Source: Bacilli bacterium (GTDB lineage Bacteria; Bacillota_I; Bacilli_A; RF39; UBA660). Taken from it: a stretch of 64,000 nt of DNA. This document shows, in pieces, positions 24,434 through 60,455 of this stretch. A program made the position numbers and the translations under genes. Location: NCBI GenBank assembly GCA_017409785.1, contig JAFQSD010000004.1, positions 48,663 through 112,662 of the forward strand. Direction: 5' to 3'. Below the pieces are notes generated by a model. The model did not search any database and was not told the DNA's origin. It saw only the letters and a list, made by a program, of their open reading frames with translations. How positions within the stretch are numbered: position 1 is the first letter of the stretch; every line of letters begins with the position of its first letter.

Positions 24434-24844
24434 GTGGTGATTATAATGAAAGTAATAACTGTAAAGCAACCATTCGCAACACTTATAGCAGAAGGTCTAA
24501 AAGAATATGAATTTAGAACATGGAGAACTAAATTTAGAGGTGATATTTTAATACATGCCGGTAAGGGAATAGATAAAAAGGCTATGGAAAGATATAAACA
24601 TTTAAATTTAGATTATCCATCAGGAAAAATAATAGCAAAAGCAACTATCACAGACTGTGTTTATGTAGATGATAATTTAAAAGAAGAATTACAAGAAAAA
24701 GATCCATTAGTATATTATGGTATACTTCAAAAAGATAGTGATTGGGATGGTTATGGATTTAAATTAGAAAACATAGAAAAGATAGAACCAATAGAAATAA
24801 ATGGAAAACTAAGTCTATGGGACTATGATTATAAAGACGAGTAA
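24434..24844 (+). CDS. ASCH-domain protein
   Basis: KVITVKQPFATLIAEGLKEYEFRTWRTKFRGDILIHAG is a typical ASCH/PUA-like N-terminus. Confidence 0.55.
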   Translation: MVIIMKVITVKQPFATLIAEGLKEYEFRTWRTKFRGDILIHAGKGIDKKAMERYKHLNLDYPSGKIIAKATITDCVYVDDNLKEELQEKDPLVYYGILQKDSDWDGYGFKLENIEKIEPIEINGKLSLWDYDYKDE

Positions 24845-24858
24845 TCGTCTTTTTTTTG
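24834..24858 (+). terminator. rho-independent terminator
   Basis: agacga gtaa tcgtct followed by a T8 run. Confidence 0.5.
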
Positions 24859-24879
24859 TAAACATAAATTGTGGAAAAC

Positions 24880-24906
24880 TTGACAAAGAGGTGGGGGGGG
24901 TACAAT
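24880..24906 (+). promoter_or_regulatory. promoter TTGACA-15-TACAAT with a G8 homopolymer in the spacer
   Basis: TTGACA at 24880-24885, G8 at 24893-24900 and TACAAT at 24901-24906, about 25 nt upstream of ATG 24932. Confidence 0.45.
24893..24900 (+). repeat. poly-G (G8) homopolymeric tract
   Basis: Seen directly. It is exceptional in a roughly 70% A+T sequence. Confidence 0.9.
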
Positions 24907-24931
24907 TTTACTAGAATAGGAGTTGCAGAAA

Positions 24932-25615
24932 ATGGAAAAATCAAGAAAAACTAAAGTTTTATTAATTATTGCATTAGTATTAGCAATAACAGGAATGTCT
25001 TTAGGATTTGCAGCTTTCTCATCAACTTTAACTATCTCATCAAGTGCGACTGTAACACCTAATAGTGATGATTTTAACCTTACGATATATGGTATTAGTG
25101 ATTATGTGGCTTGGGGAGATTTTCTAAATAGTTTAGACTTTTCACTTCTTTCTACTACAATATCTTCTCCAACACTTAACCCTACATCATCGTCGGCCGA
25201 AACAACTGCTACAACAGCAATTATAAATAATGATACAATGACATTATCAAATATAAGTGTAACATTCTCAAAGCCAAGTATAGAAACAGCTAATTATTAT
25301 TTTGTACTAAAAAACACAGGAAAATATACTGCATATATGAATTTAAATGAAAGTGAAATAGGAGAATTATGTACATGGGAAGAAAATACAACGGAAAGTT
25401 TAGCAGAACAAGCATGTAATTCTATATATTGGAATATATATACCATAGATAATCAGGGAAATCAAATAGAATTCGGCACAAGTCCAATATTACCAAATGA
25501 TTGGCAAATGCTATTGATTGAATTCAAATATCCAGAGGGTTCAGTCTTACCAGATGGAAATATTAAATATGAAGTAAGAGAATTAAAACTCCCATATACG
25601 ACAACACCACAATAA
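24932..25615 (+). CDS. secreted protein with SipW-cognate-like (TasA/camelysin-type) signal peptide
   Basis: N-terminus K-rich, hydrophobic, then G-SLGFAAFSSTLTISSSATV, compared with the TasA/CalY G-GT-AAF-D class. It has a paralogue at 27505. Confidence 0.45.
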   Translation: MEKSRKTKVLLIIALVLAITGMSLGFAAFSSTLTISSSATVTPNSDDFNLTIYGISDYVAWGDFLNSLDFSLLSTTISSPTLNPTSSSAETTATTAIINNDTMTLSNISVTFSKPSIETANYYFVLKNTGKYTAYMNLNESEIGELCTWEENTTESLAEQACNSIYWNIYTIDNQGNQIEFGTSPILPNDWQMLLIEFKYPEGSVLPDGNIKYEVRELKLPYTTTPQ

Positions 25616-25640
25616 AAACACCAATTAGGTGTTTTTATTT
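25616..25640. terminator. bidirectional rho-independent terminator
   Basis: aaaacacc aatta ggtgtttt, flanked by A-runs and T-runs; it sits between convergent genes. Confidence 0.55.
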
Positions 25641-26074
25641 TATAAAAATTCTTTAATTTCTTCTACGTATTCTTCTTGCATATCTACATATTCTTTCATG
25701 ATTTCTTTTACATTAGGATCTTCATCTTTTTGATTAATAAGTCTTCTTCCTTCAATAATTCCCATATTTAATCCCTGAAGTAACATCTCTGCAAGTTTTG
25801 AATCACTTCCATCATTCATAGTTCGCATTTGAATACCAGACCATGTCATAACTTTATTCATCGCATTTGTTTCATGAGGATCATCATCACTATATTTATC
25901 ATATACTTTATTAATTCTTTCTTCTAAGTCCTCATATTCTTCTAGTAAATCTTCACAAACTTTTTTAAATTTTTTATCTTCAATTTTTTCTAAGATAAAT
26001 TTAACTGCATCACTTCCCATACAACAACCTTTATTTAATTCATCTAAAATATCAATATTATTTTCTTCTTTCAT
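25640..26074 (-). CDS. small acidic cytoplasmic protein, function unknown
   Basis: The start was moved to the second ATG, where the GGAGGG RBS is correctly spaced. Confidence 0.4.
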   Translation of the reverse strand: MKEENNIDILDELNKGCCMGSDAVKFILEKIEDKKFKKVCEDLLEEYEDLEERINKVYDKYSDDDPHETNAMNKVMTWSGIQMRTMNDGSDSKLAEMLLQGLNMGIIEGRRLINQKDEDPNVKEIMKEYVDMQEEYVEEIKEFL

Positions 26075-26179
26075 AATTCCCTCCATTTATAGTATTTACA
26101 CAATTTACAAAAAAATACATTTATAAAATATTAAAAAAAAACAATTATGATATACTTAAGTAAAGTAGAGGAGAAGACT

Positions 26180-27449: not shown

Positions 27450-27478
27450 TTGAAAAAAAACGTATAGAAAGGTACAAT
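27450..27478 (+). promoter_or_regulatory. promoter TTGAAA-17-TACAAT (A8 in the spacer)
   Basis: Seen directly. It is homologous to the 24880 promoter but has poly-A instead of poly-G. Confidence 0.35.
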
Positions 27479-27504: not shown

Positions 27505-28371
27505 ATGGAAAGAAATAGACAAACAAAAATGATTACCATTATTGCATTAGTGATAGCCGTAGCAGGAATGTCTTTAGGATTTGCAGCATTTTCATCAACA
27601 TTAACTATTTCATCAAGTGCAACAGTTGCACCAGATAGTTCAAACTTTAAAGTTGGATTTTATGCCAGCACAACGTCTACTTTAGCAAGTGAAGCTCAAG
27701 ATCATGTTTATCCAAGTACAAATGGAAGTGCTAGTGCTACTTCACTATATATATCAGAAGGAACTACATCAATTTCTGGATTAAAAGCCAACTTTACCGC
27801 ACCGGGAGAATCAGTTACTTATAGTTTTTATGTTGGGAATAGTGGAGAGTATGATGCTTATTTAAGAGCAATTAACTTTAATAATGTAACTGGAGCAAGT
27901 TCAAATAAAGTTTGTACTGCTGGAACAGATGCAACTGATTCTTTAGTACAAGCTGCATGTAATGATATTTCAATTAGTGTAAATGTTCATGATATAACAG
28001 CAACATCTACAAGTTCCAGTATATCAGGTAAAGTATTATACAAAAAAACATTTGCACCAATTACAATAACTATTGAATATGCTGCAAATGGAAATAGAGC
28101 AGATGGACCATTCTCAGTATCTTTTGGAGATATTTCTATAGATTATAGTACTATTGACAATAATGTAAATACAATAACCTTTACAATTAACGATGAAATA
28201 TATTACGCCGAACAAGGAATGACTCATCTGGATTGGTTTGAAAGTTCATATAATACGTTGTATGATGATATAACAATATTGTTCTGTGATGGTGAAAATA
28301 AAATAATTAATGAAACCGATGTTCTTATAAATAACGAAGAATATTATCTTGGTGATTCATACTGCATTTAA
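27505..28371 (+). CDS. secreted protein with SipW-cognate-like signal peptide (paralogue of 24932)
   Basis: Its N-terminus MERNRQTKMITIIALVIAVAGMSLGFAAFSSTLTISSSATV is almost identical to that of the 24932 protein. The mature parts diverge. Confidence 0.45.
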   Translation: MERNRQTKMITIIALVIAVAGMSLGFAAFSSTLTISSSATVAPDSSNFKVGFYASTTSTLASEAQDHVYPSTNGSASATSLYISEGTTSISGLKANFTAPGESVTYSFYVGNSGEYDAYLRAINFNNVTGASSNKVCTAGTDATDSLVQAACNDISISVNVHDITATSTSSSISGKVLYKKTFAPITITIEYAANGNRADGPFSVSFGDISIDYSTIDNNVNTITFTINDEIYYAEQGMTHLDWFESSYNTLYDDITILFCDGENKIINETDVLINNEEYYLGDSYCI

Positions 28372-28388: not shown

Positions 28389-29639
28389 CTAAGCATTCTT
28401 TTTATTTTGTATAATTGTTACTGTACTATGTGATAGATCTAAAGACTTAATAGTCTCAACAAAATCCTCATAACTAAATTCTTCTATATCACTAACTGTA
28501 TCAGGATATGGATAATTAAACTCTACTATATTACTTACAAAAGGCATAACAGTATCTACTAAATTTTCACTACGAAGTACAATCTTTAAAATAGTATCTT
28601 TTTTATCAATTTCAAATATCTCTTCATTAAAAGTATTAAGTTTCAAACAAGTATCCTTTATACGTTTTTCTAATTCTTTAGAATTATTACTATAAGATCC
28701 AATTGATATTAAAACAAAGCCATCAATCATAAAGTCACTACAAGAAAGAGTAGTAGTAATTATTTTATCTTCAACTAAACTCTTATAAAGTGGAGAAGTC
28801 ATTCCAAAACACATATCAAAGAAATAGTGTAAATAGAAATCTAATTTTAATCTTTCCTTAACAGTAAATTTACTTAGATTAACTTTATAAGTAACTTCAG
28901 TGTAATCTTCTCCAGTAGGAAACTCTAAAATATCTCTTTCTTTAATTACTTCATCTTTTTCATTAACTTGTATTAATTTCATATCACAACTTTTAATATC
29001 TAATTCATTGTAAATATTTTCTATAAGTTTTAACACTTTATCTTTATCAAAACTTCCTGCGATTACAATAAACTGATTACTAGGTTGATAAAATGCTTTA
29101 TAACAAGTCATAACATCTTCTAAAGTAGTATTAGAAACTTCTTCTAATGTTCCCCCAATACTTCTAACTTTAATATTTTCTAAACAGTTATTTAATGTCA
29201 TTTGATTAGAATGATAAAATTTATTATCCATACGTCCTTTTATTTCTTGAAGAATTGGTTTCTTAATTTTTTCTAATCTTTCTTCGTTAAATACAGGAGC
29301 ATAGATTCCTCTAATCATTGTTTCAATTCCAAATTCAACGTCTTCGATTGCTTCAAAATAATACTTGGTCATATTGTAATAAGTTGAAGCATTTGTTGCC
29401 ATTTGTTTTTCTCCAAGTAATTTTAAAAAGTTACCTCTTGCATTTTCTTCAACAATATAATGTTCTAGTATATGAGCAACACCATCTTGTATATGATATT
29501 CTTTACCATCTAATAAAAAATCTTTTGTCTTACCACCAAATAAAGTTACATGTTGAAATAAAGTAGAGTGTCTTCTTTTATCAGAGTACAAATAAATAGT
29601 TAATCCATTATCTAATTTAATAGTTTCTATATTATTCAT
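28389..29639 (-). CDS. M16-family zinc peptidase (catalytic subunit, HxxEH)
   Basis: HILEH inverted zinc-binding motif. The start was set at MNNIETIKLDNGL, which overlaps the upstream stop (ATGAATAA). Confidence 0.7.
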   Translation of the reverse strand: MNNIETIKLDNGLTIYLYSDKRRHSTLFQHVTLFGGKTKDFLLDGKEYHIQDGVAHILEHYIVEENARGNFLKLLGEKQMATNASTYYNMTKYYFEAIEDVEFGIETMIRGIYAPVFNEERLEKIKKPILQEIKGRMDNKFYHSNQMTLNNCLENIKVRSIGGTLEEVSNTTLEDVMTCYKAFYQPSNQFIVIAGSFDKDKVLKLIENIYNELDIKSCDMKLIQVNEKDEVIKERDILEFPTGEDYTEVTYKVNLSKFTVKERLKLDFYLHYFFDMCFGMTSPLYKSLVEDKIITTTLSCSDFMIDGFVLISIGSYSNNSKELEKRIKDTCLKLNTFNEEIFEIDKKDTILKIVLRSENLVDTVMPFVSNIVEFNYPYPDTVSDIEEFSYEDFVETIKSLDLSHSTVTIIQNKKNA

Positions 29640-30897
29640 GATCTTCCTCCTCAATAAAGTAAATTGTATCAAGTTTGAATCTTTCCACAAATTTAGAAAT
29701 ATCTTCAGCACTAACACTTAATGCTTCTTTATAACTATCTTCCATATTTTTATCAATATCTAATGTTTCTAATACAACATCATTTAATAAAGTAAATTTA
29801 TCATCTAAACTCTTAATTAATGAAACACGTCTACGTTCTTTAATGTTTTCTAAATAGTCACGAATCTTATTTGGATCTTTAATATCTTCCATAACTTCTT
29901 TAATCTTCTCAATAACAATATCTTTATTTTTCTTATTGATATAGGCAGTAACTTCAAAAACACCAAATCTTAAATAAGCAAGTGCTTTAGAAGAATAAAC
30001 TAAATCATTTTCATCTCTTAATTTTTTATTAAGCATTCTAGAAGATAGGGAAGTAAGTAGTCCTCTAACTAAACTTAACTTTGTAAAATCATCTTCACTC
30101 ATATCTTTAATCTTATAGTAGAATGAAACAGATGAATCCTTAAAGTTTTTCTTTTCTTCAACATAATTAACATCATTTTCTCCAACACTTAAGAAATGAC
30201 TATATCTTTTTTCTATTACTTCAACATTAGATAAATTTTTATAAAGATACTTATCAGCCAAAGTGTTTATTTTTTTCTCATCAACATTTCCAAAAATAAA
30301 TACTGCAGGATGATATGCATTAATAACTTCTTTATATAATTCATATAAATTTTGTGGATTAATTTCATCTAATTGATATCTATGATTCTCAATAGTCCTT
30401 GATAAAATTCCTTCATCATCAATTAATTCTAATCCTTTAACAGCTTGGTATGGTCTAAGATTCTTCATCGCATTTTCAATACTCATATCAAGATTCTTCT
30501 TTTCGCGTTCCACTTCAAATGCATCAAATCCATTATCAATAACTTTAGGGTTATAAATCATTTCTTGAAAAAACTCAAATTGTTCTTCTAAATTATCAAA
30601 CCCTAATGCTTCTGTATCAGGAATAATCATACTAAAACATAAACACATATTTGTTCCAACAGTCATCTTCGTACAACTAGTATTCAATATGTATTTCTTT
30701 TTTCTATTCTTTTGAAATTCTTCTTCAGTATGATATGTATTATTCATATACATTAATAAATTAGGTAGAATAGAAAACTTAGTTAAATTTTCTTCATCAT
30801 CATAATATGGGAATAATACTCTAACAATTATTGTCTGAAAATCTTTATTCTTAATTATTACCGGTCTTTTAGGTATCTTTAATTCCATATACTTCAC
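29632..30897 (-). CDS. M16-family peptidase-like protein lacking HxxEH (non-catalytic partner)
   Basis: Same size and fold-level similarity; no HxxEH motif; translationally coupled to the downstream catalytic subunit. Confidence 0.55.
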   Translation of the reverse strand: MKYMELKIPKRPVIIKNKDFQTIIVRVLFPYYDDEENLTKFSILPNLLMYMNNTYHTEEEFQKNRKKKYILNTSCTKMTVGTNMCLCFSMIIPDTEALGFDNLEEQFEFFQEMIYNPKVIDNGFDAFEVEREKKNLDMSIENAMKNLRPYQAVKGLELIDDEGILSRTIENHRYQLDEINPQNLYELYKEVINAYHPAVFIFGNVDEKKINTLADKYLYKNLSNVEVIEKRYSHFLSVGENDVNYVEEKKNFKDSSVSFYYKIKDMSEDDFTKLSLVRGLLTSLSSRMLNKKLRDENDLVYSSKALAYLRFGVFEVTAYINKKNKDIVIEKIKEVMEDIKDPNKIRDYLENIKERRRVSLIKSLDDKFTLLNDVVLETLDIDKNMEDSYKEALSVSAEDISKFVERFKLDTIYFIEEEDHE

Positions 30898-46352: not shown

Positions 46353-46423
46353 TTGCTTTCTTTTCTTTTATTGAAAATAAAAGAAAAATATGTTAGTATA
46401 TAAGGCATTTAAGGGGGATATAT

Positions 46424-49354
46424 ATGAACTTTGAAATATTATTAAGTAAATTATTAAGACTGCCACTAAATAAAGCGTTAGATATATATAATGAGTATCT
46501 AAAAAATAATCAAGATAACTTTGCTAATAATTTACGCGCCTCAAACTTACTTATGGAAAAAACACAAACAAGAAAAAGAATTAAAGATGAATGTTTTGAA
46601 ACTGCACTTATGGCTTTGGCTTTCATGTCACAAAAGAAGAACCAATTAGCGGATATGATGCTTGAAGAGACAAAGCCATACCCTATGATTGTTTGGATGG
46701 AAGTAATAGGAGAAATGGATGATGAAGGAATAAAAGGTGTATTAAAAAATTATGCAGATAAATTACCTCCTCCAATAATTGAGACATTAATTTTAAATTT
46801 ATCAGAGTCAAAGCAAGCAGTAGCAATAAATAAGTATAAAAATAGATTGGATTCAAAAAGTGAAATGTTTTATTCATTTTATTTATGTTTATCTAAAGAA
46901 GCACAACAAGAACTTGATAGACTGACTAATAAAGCTGTAAAAGTAAATCCACTACTACAATTGAGTGATCAAGAACCGTCTCAAATAAAAAAAAGCTTAA
47001 TTGTAAATAAAGAATTATATAAAGAGATTCCAATGGATGATATTATTGAAGTTCTTTTATTAAATGTAAATTCATCAGAAGATATTTTTGACATATTAAA
47101 GACTTATGAAGATAGACAAACAGAAATATCTGATATGCGATTTAAATTATTAGTTGGTAGACTAAAAGTATTATTAAATGAAGAAACATATAACCATAGA
47201 TTTGAAAATGCAGAAGAAATATTTAATAAACTAAAATCTCGTTTTAAAAGATTAGGTTTAAAAGACTCACTTGCTATCTTAGATGCCAAAGTAGATGGTT
47301 ATTATTCTTGTGAACATGGTAATGAAATAATTTATGAATTTTTAGATATTGCATATGAAAACGAAAACCTAAGAGACTTTGTAAATGAAAAAACAATCTC
47401 AGCACTGGTTGAAAGATTTGTAAATGATTGCAGAAGTAAAGAATATACAGTTGAAGACTTCCGAAGATTAGTTGAAAAAACTACAACGACTAAGCCTTAT
47501 AAGTTAATAAAAGATGATTATATTGAAGCAATAATTGCCTGTGGTTCATTAATGAAAAACCACATAATATCAGATCAAGATCCTCATTTTTTAGAATTAC
47601 GTAGAAGATTTATTTCTATGCTAAATGATCAAGTAGAAAAAGATGGAACTTTAACAGAAGAAGTTAATTTCAATGGATTATTCTATCGTTTAATAAAAGG
47701 TAGTGTTGATTTTGATAAGGTCTTTAATACTAAAACATATAAAGGCTTAATATATCTAACAAAATCTGGACGAGTATTTAATAATCCAGACTTGATCACA
47801 AAATATTTATCAGACGAGCAAATAAGAAAATTAGATATATCACCAGTTCTACATTTAAAGAAAGAGCTAATTAATGAAGCTAATAGAAAACATAAAGAAG
47901 TAAAGCCTAATAGTGAATTAGATCCTCGCTATGCAGTATCAGATTTTAAAGAAAGAATGATGCTTCAATTACTTTGTTATTTTGGTGAAACTAGAGCAAG
48001 ACATATTATCAAATCAGCTATGAAACCAACTAGAATGGAAAACATTTTTGATAGTCTTAATTACAAAGATATTAAGATTGATGAAAATGGTAAACCAATT
48101 GTAAATCAAGAATTAGTTGATTTCTTATTCGGAAGAGGTAGTGTAGCAGAAAAGAACACAGTTATGAATAGAATAATTCGAGAAGAATTATTAGATTTCG
48201 GAAGATTTGTTCCTGAAATATGTAATAACTACGAAGAGGTAAAAAAAGCTTGTCATGGAATTATAACTGTAAAAAGAGCAATGGCTCATTTTGAAGATAT
48301 AGTTCTTCCTATTGAGTTAAAACCAAATGAACGAGAATTTAAACCGGCATTAAAAGAAATGCGTATTACTAAAGAAGATACTTTAGCCAAGGGAGTTTCC
48401 TTATGTCATGATGCCAAAAAAAGAACATCATCAACTATACCAAAAGTAAAAGGAAAATTAGGAGACTTTACATATGAAATACTAGATGTAAAAGATCCGT
48501 TTGCTTTAGCGGTAGGATACTTATCACATTGTTGTTTTGTTGTTGATGGTATTTCATATTCAGCATTAAAACATTCAATGCAATCTGTAAACGGAAGAAC
48601 ATTTGTTGTTTATCATAAAGGCAAATTTTTAACACAAAGTTGGATGTGGAGAAATGGCGATGTTGTTTGTTTCGACAGTGTTGAATCAGGAAGTAGTATT
48701 CATGGTGCCTACAATGATGATATAAAATTAGTAGATGTCTACAAACATGTCGCGGATGAAATAATGGATATTTCAAAATGTAATGAAACGGATGCAGAAA
48801 GAGTTAAAGTAGTCACAGTAGGGGCATCAGATTATATCTTCAAAGGACTACCACAAGTCGAAGGAAAAGTTCCAAGACCACAAGAAAGAGATGTATATGT
48901 TTACGATTCATCAACGCAAGGAATTCTTGCAGGAGAAATGCCTAAAAAGCCAAATTATGATCCTGTATCAATTAGATACAAAGACCCAAGAAAAAGAGTG
49001 CATAAGTTCTTAAGTATTGAAGAAGCAGATGTTGATGATTTAGATGAAGCATTATTAAAACTACAATCAATTAAATATGAGTCTACTGGTAGTGAAGAAG
49101 TAGAAGATATTACTACAATGAACCAACTATTTGTTGGCCAAGACTGGTATATAAAAACAACAAAAGATGGCACTGTCGAAGTAGAAATATTAGGTGAGGA
49201 AGATGCTTCACTTGAAGAATGTAAACGATATGCTGAACTGTTAGGAATAGAATTTGAAATGGAACACAAAGAATTAAATGATGGTTACCAATTATCAAAA
49301 GACGATGTAGTAAAACAGCTACGAAAGACAAAATTAGAAAGTAGGAGGGGATAA
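46424..49354 (+). CDS. large (976 aa) cytoplasmic protein of unknown function
   Basis: No P-loop or known nuclease motif is visible. The C-terminal third has a Cys/His/Asp-containing segment (..GYLSHCCFVVDG..VVYHKG..RNGDVV..). Strong RBS aaggggga. Confidence 0.5.
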   Translation: MNFEILLSKLLRLPLNKALDIYNEYLKNNQDNFANNLRASNLLMEKTQTRKRIKDECFETALMALAFMSQKKNQLADMMLEETKPYPMIVWMEVIGEMDDEGIKGVLKNYADKLPPPIIETLILNLSESKQAVAINKYKNRLDSKSEMFYSFYLCLSKEAQQELDRLTNKAVKVNPLLQLSDQEPSQIKKSLIVNKELYKEIPMDDIIEVLLLNVNSSEDIFDILKTYEDRQTEISDMRFKLLVGRLKVLLNEETYNHRFENAEEIFNKLKSRFKRLGLKDSLAILDAKVDGYYSCEHGNEIIYEFLDIAYENENLRDFVNEKTISALVERFVNDCRSKEYTVEDFRRLVEKTTTTKPYKLIKDDYIEAIIACGSLMKNHIISDQDPHFLELRRRFISMLNDQVEKDGTLTEEVNFNGLFYRLIKGSVDFDKVFNTKTYKGLIYLTKSGRVFNNPDLITKYLSDEQIRKLDISPVLHLKKELINEANRKHKEVKPNSELDPRYAVSDFKERMMLQLLCYFGETRARHIIKSAMKPTRMENIFDSLNYKDIKIDENGKPIVNQELVDFLFGRGSVAEKNTVMNRIIREELLDFGRFVPEICNNYEEVKKACHGIITVKRAMAHFEDIVLPIELKPNEREFKPALKEMRITKEDTLAKGVSLCHDAKKRTSSTIPKVKGKLGDFTYEILDVKDPFALAVGYLSHCCFVVDGISYSALKHSMQSVNGRTFVVYHKGKFLTQSWMWRNGDVVCFDSVESGSSIHGAYNDDIKLVDVYKHVADEIMDISKCNETDAERVKVVTVGASDYIFKGLPQVEGKVPRPQERDVYVYDSSTQGILAGEMPKKPNYDPVSIRYKDPRKRVHKFLSIEEADVDDLDEALLKLQSIKYESTGSEEVEDITTMNQLFVGQDWYIKTTKDGTVEVEILGEEDASLEECKRYAELLGIEFEMEHKELNDGYQLSKDDVVKQLRKTKLESRRG

Positions 49355-60119: not shown

Positions 60120-60340
60120 GCCAGTTAATTAAAAGACGACTCATTCAAAGTAATTATTTTATAATGTTTTATAGAGAGTTTGTGGTTATGTGGAAACAAA
60201 CAAAAATAAAATAATGAATTACAAGTGATGATTTTAATCGGAGAAGTCCGTTATCAAAATAAGGTAATAAACTATTATTACAAATAAAGGTGGTACCACG
60301 AGCATTTCGTCCTTTTGGATGAAGTGCTCTTTTTATTTTC
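60120..60340 (+). promoter_or_regulatory. T-box riboswitch leader (tyrosine specifier candidate UAC at 60220-60222)
   Basis: AGAGAG stem-I start, T-box core aaaGGTGGTACCacgag with a 7-nt UGGUACC bulge flanked by AAAGG/CCUUU and ACGA/UCGU helices, and an overlapping terminator gagcatttcgtcc/ggatgaagtgctc plus a T-run. It lies upstream of tyrS. Confidence 0.7.
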
Positions 60341-60356: not shown

Positions 60357-60455
60357 ATGGATAGTGACTATTACTATTATTACTTTGATGATTGTAATTT
60401 AATTAACTATACAAATTATTTAGGAGGAAATAAAAATGAAAAAGAAATTATTTGA
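60357..60455 (+). CDS. candidate 32-codon Tyr-rich upstream ORF (MDSDYYYYYFDDCNLINYTNYLGGNKNEKEII)
   Basis: Strong RBS aaaggaggtg 7 nt upstream, directly after the T-box terminator; overlaps the tyrS RBS and start in another frame. Confidence 0.3.
   Translation: MDSDYYYYYFDDCNLINYTNYLGGNKNEKEII

What the first reader, a model, noticed from the sequence alone, without database searches (positions are those of the whole stretch)
24880..24906. G8 homopolymer inside the -35/-10 spacer of a secreted-protein promoter: candidate phase-variation switch
Seen: TTGACA (24880-24885), then a 15-nt spacer ending in G8 (24893-24900), then TACAAT (24901-24906), about 25 nt upstream of the ATG of a secreted protein (24932). 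The window is roughly 70% A+T, and I see no other G-run of this length. The paralogous gene at 27505 has the same promoter skeleton (TTGAAA-17-TACAAT) but an A8 run instead. Established: homopolymeric tracts in the promoter spacer drive slipped-strand phase variation of surface proteins (Neisseria porA/opc, Haemophilus hif, Mycoplasma vlp). Inference: a 15-nt spacer is suboptimal and G9/G10 would give 16/17 nt, so this copy may be in a low-expression phase while its paralogue is constitutively well spaced.
Basis: partly seen in the sequence, partly recalled or inferred. Interest (0 to 1): 0.7.

Follow-up and report, generated by a model that had tools for sequence, protein, structure and literature searches.

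The report
Variable poly-G tract in surface-protein promoter
Eight G's sit between the two recognition boxes of the promoter of a hypervariable exported protein in an uncultured ruminant-gut bacterium, and related assemblies carry 9 or 10 G's there, so it is probably a slippage-driven expression dial of a well-known kind, seen in a new organism and gene family.

Summary
TTGACA (24880-24885), a 15-nt spacer ending in G8 (24893-24900) and TACAAT (24901-24906) lie 25 nt upstream of ATG 24932. G8 is the only G or C run of 6 or more in 64 kb of 27% G+C DNA (about 0.02 expected).

The same promoter, otherwise unchanged, carries G8, G9 or G10 in close relatives, giving spacers of 15, 16 and 17 nt. 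Two other species-level lineages (about 84% identical flanks) keep an uninterrupted G9 or G10 at the same place. The two hexamers are the conserved islands across orthologues and paralogues. Paralogues have 17-nt spacers and no G tract.

The gene encodes an exported beta-sandwich protein of a large uncharacterised family. Its N-terminal 47 residues are almost invariant and the rest is hypervariable.

The best reading is a homopolymeric-tract promoter-spacer contingency locus, as in N. meningitidis porA and T. pallidum tp0126, here in an uncultured Bacilli commensal.

Three things are not shown: switching within a clone, the transcription start, and the effect of tract length on expression. Two cautions apply. 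A neighbouring terminator T-run is equally polymorphic, and consensus tract lengths are stable within lineages.

Verdict: a new member of a known kind, of moderate interest.

The parts
24833..24857 (+). Intrinsic terminator of the upstream ASCH-domain gene: hairpin 24833-24852 plus a T8 tail at 24850-24857. It isolates the downstream gene transcriptionally. The T-run is itself polymorphic (T6-T8) among lineages.
24880..24885 (+). -35 hexamer TTGACA, a perfect consensus match
   Evidence: conserved across orthologues and paralogues
24886..24900 (+). Promoter spacer AAGAGGT + G8, 15 nt here. It is 16 nt (G9) or 17 nt (G10) in related assemblies.
24893..24900 (+). G8 homopolymeric tract abutting the -10 hexamer. 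It is the proposed slippage-prone element.
24901..24906 (+). -10 hexamer TACAAT (5 of 6)
   Evidence: invariant T, A..A.T columns
24918..24922 (+). Shine-Dalgarno sequence AGGAG, 9 nt before the ATG
24932..25615 (+). CDS of 227 aa: basic N-terminus, hydrophobic helix, invariant GFAAF motif and conserved STLTISSSATVTPNSDDF segment, then a hypervariable beta-sandwich with two invariant Cys. It matches no Pfam or NCBIfam family.
27450..27478 (+). Promoter of the paralogue, TTGAAA-17-TACAAT, with no G tract
27505..28371 (+). Paralogous CDS of 288 aa, same family

Best explanation
The G tract is a hypermutable simple-sequence repeat inside the spacer of a sigma-A-type promoter (TTGACA - 7 nt + Gn - TACAAT). 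This promoter drives a monocistronic gene for an exported, antigenically hypervariable beta-sandwich protein.

Proposed mechanism. Slipped-strand mispairing during replication adds or removes single G's. Each step changes the distance and the angular register between the -35 and -10 hexamers. G10 gives the canonical 17 nt (full strength), G9 gives 16 nt (intermediate), and G8, the state in this window, gives 15 nt (weak or off). The locus would then act as a heritable, reversible 'volume control' (contingency locus) for a surface protein.

Shown: the tract, its position, its length polymorphism among close relatives, its retention across three species-level lineages, conservation of the hexamers, and the nature of the product.

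Inferred: that these hexamers are the working promoter, that 15 nt means low expression, and that switching is frequent and reversible within clonal populations.
For: 1. The tract is exceptional. It is the only G or C run of 6 or more in 64 kb at 27% G+C, against about 0.02 expected, and the window holds no other notable SSR.

2. Its length differs among near-identical sequences. G8 is in the window and L001. G9 is in L002, which is 99.8% identical with the tract as its only indel. G10 is in L006-L009, which are 98.2% identical, with the tract and the terminator T-run as the only indels in 3.7 kb.

3. Lengths agree between independent assemblies. L098 (ENA) and L099 (Logan) both give G9; L006 and L008 both give G10. 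This argues against assembler noise.

4. An uninterrupted tract is retained at the same position in two other lineages with flanks about 84% identical. One has G9 in L003, L101, L098 and L100, which differ from each other by 0.4-6%. The other (L016) has G10, although its adjoining spacer bases differ (AAGAGGT, AAGAGAT, AAATGACGT).

5. TTGACA and TACAAT/TAAAAT are the conserved islands in 14 aligned upstream regions. Paralogues have exactly 17-nt spacers, which suggests the family's preferred geometry.

6. Observed spacers run from 15 to 19 nt and cluster at 16-17. That is the range over which spacing matters.

7. The product fits the usual cargo of contingency loci. It has an N-terminal export or anchor helix and two invariant Cys. 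Its mature domain is unalignable (about 45%) between lineages whose promoter and signal peptide are 96-97% identical.

8. An intergenic A9 run at 26133-26141 is invariant in all 7 sequences where it could be scored.

9. Experimental precedent for the same architecture exists. In T. pallidum tp0126 a poly-G lies between -35 and -10 with an optimum at 17 nt. In N. meningitidis porA transcription falls when the 17-nt spacing is reduced (PMC7864442).
Against: - No read-level data are available, so heterogeneity within a population is unshown.
- Consensus length is stable within lineages. G10 appears in four samples of one strain. G9 appears in four sequences of the second lineage that differ by up to 6%. 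This suggests either a modest switching rate or strong selection for 16-17 nt.
- The adjacent terminator T-run varies just as much (T6-T8) with no proposed function, so polymorphism alone does not prove a purpose.
- G8 itself is documented only in the window and in L001, which are 100% identical over 6.7 kb and may come from one sample. Seven further contigs carrying the identical protein could not be displayed.
- Alleles of the same gene exist with a fixed 18-nt spacer and G6, GGAGGG or GGTTGG, so the tract is dispensable.
- The transcription start is not mapped.
- Mismatch-repair status is unknown.
Confidence: 0.62

Rival explanations
1. Neutral homopolymer polymorphism. A GG that normally precedes the -10 box expanded by chance. 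The tract now drifts in length like any intergenic homopolymer. Any effect on expression is incidental, not an evolved switch, and the consensus stays where the promoter still works.
For: - The neighbouring terminator T-run is as polymorphic (T6-T8) as the G tract.
- Tract length is constant within lineages (G9 in four sequences up to 6% apart, G10 in four samples).
- Tract-less or G6 alleles with an 18-nt spacer serve the identical gene body.
- An apparent series GGTTGG, GGAGGG, G6 among alleles suggests origin by point mutation.
Against: - A G8-G10 run in a 27% G+C genome is about 50-fold less likely than chance allows.
- It should decay by interruption, yet it is kept uninterrupted in three lineages about 16% apart.
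- It sits exactly where +/-1 nt matters.
- The cargo is a hypervariable exported protein.
- The A9 control does not vary.
Confidence: 0.2
2. The tract is real and variable but acts by a mechanism other than -35/-10 spacing. It could set the distance to an activator or repressor site, or alter local DNA structure. That would resemble the T. pallidum tprE/G/J poly-G or the B. pertussis fim poly-C. Alternatively the working promoter lies elsewhere.
For: - The transcription start is unmapped.
- In the L016 lineage the same hexamers are 19 nt apart with G10, and in allele group 2 they are 18 nt apart. The system therefore tolerates non-canonical spacing.
- PMC7864442 describes poly-G tracts upstream of tpr genes that do not lie cleanly between hexamers.
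Against: - Only 74 nt lie between the terminator and the ATG. The TTGACA/TACAAT pair is the only good sigma-A match there, and it is conserved in position relative to the RBS in orthologues and paralogues.
- Shifting the -35 frame to restore 16-17 nt in the G8 allele gives hexamers matching 1 of 6 (read directly from the sequence).
- No known RNA element is present.
Confidence: 0.1
3. The length differences are sequencing or assembly artefacts at a difficult poly-G. The true tract has one length.
For: - Poly-G runs are error-prone on Illumina two-colour chemistry (own knowledge).
- G8 is seen in only one strain or sample.
- One Logan contig (L017) breaks inside the tract.
Against: - Lengths are reproducible. 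G10 appears in four assemblies of one lineage, and G9 in five assemblies from different studies and assemblers.
- ENA and Logan assemblies agree for L098/L099 and for L006/L008.
- Length tracks flanking haplotype.
Confidence: 0.06

Closest known systems
Neisseria meningitidis porA promoter poly-G tract
   Same: A poly-G run lies between the -35 and -10 hexamers of the promoter of a major surface protein. Single-G changes move the spacing away from 17 nt and grade transcription from high to none (summarised in PMC7864442). Here there are three lengths giving 15, 16 and 17 nt.
   Different: porA belongs to a Gram-negative pathogen and encodes an outer-membrane porin, and its switching and expression have been measured. 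Here the host is an uncultured Gram-positive-type Bacilli commensal, the protein family is unrelated and uncharacterised, and nothing has been measured.
Treponema pallidum tp0126 (OmpW homologue) promoter poly-G
   Same: The poly-G lies between the -35 and -10 sequences. Transcription is optimal when the tract brings the spacing to 17 nt. Length varies within and between isolates (PMC7864442).
   Different: tp0126 is in a spirochaete and encodes an outer-membrane beta-barrel. It was tested experimentally by fragment-length analysis and GFP reporters. No such data exist here.
Mycoplasma hyorhinis vlp genes (poly-A tract in the promoter spacer)
   Same: A multigene family of variable surface proteins with a highly conserved promoter and signal-peptide 5' module and a divergent mature region. 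A homopolymer in the -35/-10 spacer switches individual genes on and off (own knowledge, not re-checked here).
   Different: Vlps are lipoproteins with a lipobox Cys and tandem-repeat bodies. This protein has no Cys near the end of the signal sequence and a globular beta-sandwich body. Only one promoter module of the family, not all paralogues, carries the tract.
T. pallidum tprE/G/J/L and Bordetella pertussis fim2/fim3 promoter homopolymers
   Same: G or C tracts in promoter regions of surface-protein genes modulate transcription according to their length.
   Different: Those tracts lie upstream of or overlapping the -35, or between an activator site and the -10, and act together with a regulator (CRP homologue Tp0262, or BvgA). 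Here the tract lies cleanly within the core spacer and no regulator site is evident.
TasA, archaeal bundling pilin (7ueg) and Sulfolobus thread (7pnb) donor-strand filament subunits, as a comparison for the protein

Membership tests
Homopolymeric-tract (SSR) promoter-spacer phase-variable / contingency locus | Uninterrupted mononucleotide tract long enough to slip (about 7-8 nt or more) | tested here: met
   G8 at 24893-24900. It is the only G or C run of 6 or more in 64 kb, against about 0.02 expected.
Homopolymeric-tract (SSR) promoter-spacer phase-variable / contingency locus | Tract lies between the -35 and -10 hexamers of the gene's own promoter | tested here: met
   In silico only. TTGACA-15-TACAAT lies between a terminator and the RBS. 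The hexamers are conserved across 14 orthologous and paralogous upstream regions. The transcription start is not mapped.
Homopolymeric-tract (SSR) promoter-spacer phase-variable / contingency locus | Tract length differs among closely related strains while the flanks stay the same | tested here: met
   G8, G9 and G10 occur with identical flanks at 98.2-99.8% overall identity. G9 and G10 occur in two more lineages.
Homopolymeric-tract (SSR) promoter-spacer phase-variable / contingency locus | High-frequency, reversible length switching within a clonal population | not testable with these tools
   No reads are available. The only hint is a Logan contig (L017) that ends inside the tract. Consensus lengths are stable within lineages.
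Homopolymeric-tract (SSR) promoter-spacer phase-variable / contingency locus | Expression level depends on tract length | not testable with these tools
   Inferred from the general 17 +/- 1 nt spacing rule and from the porA and tp0126 precedents (PMC7864442).
Homopolymeric-tract (SSR) promoter-spacer phase-variable / contingency locus | Controlled gene encodes a surface-exposed or host/phage-interaction product | tested here: inconclusive
   The protein has a basic N-terminus plus a hydrophobic helix (residues 2-37), an invariant GFAAF motif, two invariant Cys and a beta-sandwich body. The mature domain is hypervariable. Localisation has not been shown.
Mycoplasma Vlp-type variable lipoproteins | Lipoprotein signal peptide with a lipobox Cys | tested here: not met
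   The signal region MEKSRKTKVLLIIALVLAITGMSLGFAAFSS contains no Cys. The first Cys is C147.
TasA / camelysin (Peptidase_M73) and SipW-cognate signal family | Sequence-profile match to Pfam Peptidase_M73 or the NCBIfam SipW-cognate signal model | tested here: not met
   No such hit at E <= 0.01, at E <= 10 in NCBIfam, or at E <= 1 for any of 56 family members in Pfam. The PDB sequence search was also empty.
TasA / archaeal bundling-pilin / thread donor-strand filament subunits | Fold similarity to solved subunits | tested here: inconclusive
   [not shown]
TasA / archaeal bundling-pilin / thread donor-strand filament subunits | Filament formation by donor-strand complementation | not testable with these tools
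   The only support is the near-invariant N-terminal segment STLTISSSATVTP. This is suggestive, not a test.

The most novel reading that the evidence does not exclude
The gene family (over 2,000 clusters at 50% identity, no annotation) may encode subunits of an unrecognised donor-strand-type surface fibre or coat of uncultured gut Bacilli. Its invariant N-terminal strand would be the assembly interface and its body would be under diversifying selection. Expression of the syntenic copy would be set by interchangeable promoter/5' cassettes that move by recombination between alleles and species. One cassette is fixed (18-nt spacer) and one carries a hypermutable poly-G 'volume control'. That would make it a modular, transferable phase-variation cassette rather than a locally evolved repeat.
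Probability: 0.2. Interest if true: 0.65.

Novelty: new member of a known kind. Interest (0 to 1): 0.45.

Why it matters
SSR-driven phase variation has been catalogued almost entirely in cultured pathogens. A recent review names as an open question whether that restriction is real or a database bias (PMC11868660).

This locus is a clean promoter-spacer poly-G candidate in an uncultured, low-G+C Bacilli commensal of the ruminant gut. It could be recognised, and cross-checked, from metagenome assemblies alone. It suggests that contingency loci can be mined from MAGs by comparing homopolymer lengths across samples.

It also flags a large, unannotated family of hypervariable exported proteins as likely targets of host, phage or community selection.

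The mechanism itself is textbook, so a specialist would find this satisfying rather than surprising.

Tried and rejected
- **Exact-pattern scans for the promoter with a variable gap.** Genome contigs gave one locus, L003. Metagenome contigs and viral contigs gave none.
- **ASCH-anchored search of metagenome contigs.** It returned 80 loci, but none carries a family gene beside ASCH. This was useless for tract statistics, although it shows the gene is accessory.
- **Known RNA or riboswitch in the leader.** None was found.
- **Antisense ORF 24759-24944 containing the C8 tract, which would mean coding-frame phase variation.** Rejected, because its frame is not preserved in the G9 and G10 alleles.
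- **Other SSRs in the window that would indicate a multi-locus phasome.** None were found.
- **Protein identification.** Pfam, NCBIfam, the PDB sequence search and Foldseek against PDB gave nothing significant. The afdb50 library was unavailable.
- **Lipoprotein (Vlp-like) reading.** Rejected, because there is no lipobox Cys.
- **A8 of the paralogue promoter as an equivalent switch.** Rejected. It sits at the -35 end, is not conserved in L003, and A-runs of that length are common.

Full report
**1. Observation**

The sequence reads exactly as described.
- TTGACA is at 24880-24885.
- The spacer AAGAGGT+GGGGGGGG is at 24886-24900. It is 15 nt, with G8 at 24893-24900.
- TACAAT is at 24901-24906, AGGAG at 24918-24922 and the ATG at 24932.

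The window is 27.3% G+C. G8 is its only G or C homopolymer of 6 or more, and composition predicts about 0.02 such runs. Tandem Repeats Finder shows no other notable simple repeat.

A hairpin plus T8 (24833-24857) terminates the upstream ASCH-domain gene. The downstream neighbour is convergent. The gene is therefore monocistronic, and its promoter must lie in the 74 nt between the terminator and the ATG.

With a 15-nt spacer the site falls outside the 16-18 nt range of the consensus scanner and is not listed. With G9 or G10 it would score 11 of 12, equal to the best in that 8-kb scan.

**2. Source organism and neighbourhood**

The window is ordinary chromosome of an uncultured low-G+C 'Bacilli bacterium' from ruminant gut metagenomes. 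The protein is identical to MBQ2910505.1, and a relative is MAG RGIG8711 from water-deer colon.

Neighbouring genes are:
- a P-type ATPase and a GH25 lysozyme;
- a YlmH-like RNA-binding protein and an ASCH protein;
- an NrtR-like Nudix regulator;
- YfmH/YfmF-like M16 peptidases;
- Trk potassium transport genes, AdhE and glycosyltransferases.

**3. The cross-isolate test**

Public assemblies that encode the same or a 98%-identical protein were retrieved. The upstream regions were compared.

With the same flanking promoter sequence, the tract lengths are:

| Sequence | Tract | Spacer | Relation to the window |
|---|---|---|---|
| window, L001 | G8 | 15 nt | 100% identical to each other over 6.7 kb, possibly one sample |
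| L002 | G9 | 16 nt | 99.8% identical; the tract is the only indel |
| L006-L009 | G10 | 17 nt | one lineage in four assemblies, 98.2% identical; the tract and the terminator T-run are the only indels in 3.7 kb |

A second lineage has flanks only about 84% identical to the window. It carries G9 in L003, L101 and L098/L099, and TT+G9 (17-nt spacer) in L100. These sequences differ from one another by 0.4-6%.

A third lineage (L016) is about 83.5% identical to both. It is syntenic and its protein is 41% identical. It has TTGACA-AAATGACGT-G10-TAAAAT, a 19-nt spacer. The Logan contig from a related run (L017) ends inside the tract.

ENA and Logan assemblies agree on length where both exist (L098/L099 and L006/L008). 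This argues against assembler noise.

**4. Alleles without the long tract**

A second allele group in the window's own species has TTGACA-18-TACAAT. Immediately before the -10 box it has G6 (L004, L010, L012), GGAGGG (L011) or GGTTGG with TTTACT as the -35 (L005). None of these varies in length.

Non-syntenic paralogues have 17-nt spacers and no G tract. They are 27505 in the window, plus L013 and L014.

In the 14-sequence alignment the -35 and -10 hexamers and the RBS are the conserved islands. A GG before TACAAT is ancestral. This footprint supports the promoter assignment and suggests 17 nt as the family's preferred spacing.

**5. Controls and cautions**

- An intergenic A9 (26133-26141) is invariant in all seven sequences where it could be scored.
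- The terminator T-run (24850-24857) varies T6-T8 among lineages, about as often as the G tract. Polymorphism alone therefore does not prove function.
- Consensus tract length is stable within lineages. That means either strong selection for 16-17 nt or only a moderate switching rate.
- G8 itself is seen only in the window and L001. Seven other contigs with the identical protein could not be displayed.

**6. The gene product**

The 227-aa protein has a basic N-terminus, a hydrophobic helix, an invariant GFAAF motif and the conserved stretch STLTISSSATVTPNSDDF. The rest is a divergent body with two invariant Cys.

AlphaFold2 with a 56-sequence alignment gives pLDDT 89.8. The model has an N-terminal helix (residues 2-37) and a beta-sandwich.

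The family is large: 2,081 clusters at 50% identity with E <= 1e-3, and 576 with E <= 1e-30.

**7. Mosaic structure**

- Against L003, the promoter and signal-peptide segment is 96-97% identical, while the mature domain is about 45% (unalignable) and the flanks are 82-92%.
- Against L010, from the window's own species, the gene body is 100% identical but the promoter/5' segment (24817-24960) is only 70-77%.

The poly-G promoter/5' cassette and the gene body therefore have different histories, which implies recombinational exchange.

The gene is also accessory. None of 80 ASCH-anchored metagenome loci has a family member beside ASCH.

**8. Mechanism**

Best explanation (confidence 0.62): a promoter-spacer homopolymer contingency locus.
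- Slippage changes Gn by single steps.
- The spacer is 7+n nt, so G10 gives 17 nt (optimal), G9 gives 16 nt (intermediate) and G8 gives 15 nt (weak or off).
- The window would then be in the low-expression state.

The spacing-to-expression step rests on the established 17 +/- 1 nt rule for sigma-70/sigma-A promoters. It also rests on experimental precedents of the same architecture. In T. pallidum tp0126, transcription is optimal when the poly-G brings the spacing to 17 nt. In N. meningitidis porA, transcription is abrogated when the 17-nt spacing is reduced (PMC7864442).

Rivals:
- neutral homopolymer drift with incidental effects (0.20);
- a tract acting through another promoter geometry or a regulator (0.10);
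- sequencing or assembly artefact (0.06).

An antisense ORF across the tract is not conserved in frame, and no known RNA family matches the leader.

**9. Comparison and novelty**

The locus works like porA, tp0126 and the Mycoplasma vlp promoters. It meets the sequence-level criteria for that class: the tract, its position, and polymorphism between strains. The behavioural criteria (switching within a clone, expression that depends on tract length) cannot be tested here. It is not a Vlp-type lipoprotein, because it has no lipobox Cys. It did not match the TasA/Peptidase_M73 profiles.

It is a new member of a known kind. The new elements are the host (an uncultured gut Bacilli commensal), the unannotated hypervariable protein family, and the apparently exchangeable promoter cassette.

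[quoted passage not shown] That gives this example some value.

Interest: 0.45.

Noticed in passing
window 24817-24960 versus 24990-25650; L010, L004, L003: Mosaic alleles. The gene body is 100% identical between the window and L010, but their promoter and signal-peptide segment is only 70-77% identical. That same segment is 96-97% identical to L003, from a different species, whose mature domain is unalignable. The promoter/5' cassette and the gene body appear to recombine independently.
   Followed up: partly
window 24845-25640; L018-L097: The gene is accessory. In 80 metagenome loci with an ASCH orthologue (50-91% identical), no family member lies beside ASCH. In L018 (91%) the ASCH terminator is followed directly by the convergent 144-aa gene.
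   Followed up: partly
window 24850-24857: The T-run of the ASCH terminator varies T6, T7 or T8 among lineages, about as often as the G tract. It serves as a caution or control, and could also affect read-through into the promoter.
   Followed up: partly
L017 position 1 (Logan ERR10692760 contig): The contig starts inside the poly-G tract (GGGGGGTAAAAT...). The ENA assembly of the sister sample reads through as G10. This is consistent with a graph branch or a coverage drop at the tract.
   Followed up: no
[not shown]
   Followed up: partly
window 46424-49354: A 976-aa ORF with no Pfam match at E <= 1e-5. It is preceded by one of the window's few G5 runs (46413-46417), probably part of its ribosome-binding site.
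   Followed up: no
window 60127-60317: A T-box leader (RF00230, 93.1 bits) lies upstream of the ORF starting at 60436. It is the only Rfam gathering-level hit in the window.
   Followed up: no
window 28389-30897 (- strand): Two adjacent M16-family peptidase-like genes resemble the YfmH/YfmF pair associated with EF-P 5-aminopentanol modification. Both score below the NCBIfam cut-offs.
   Followed up: no
window 24759-24944 (- strand): A 61-aa antisense ORF spans the C8 complement of the tract. Its frame is broken in the G9 and G10 alleles, so it is spurious.
   Followed up: yes
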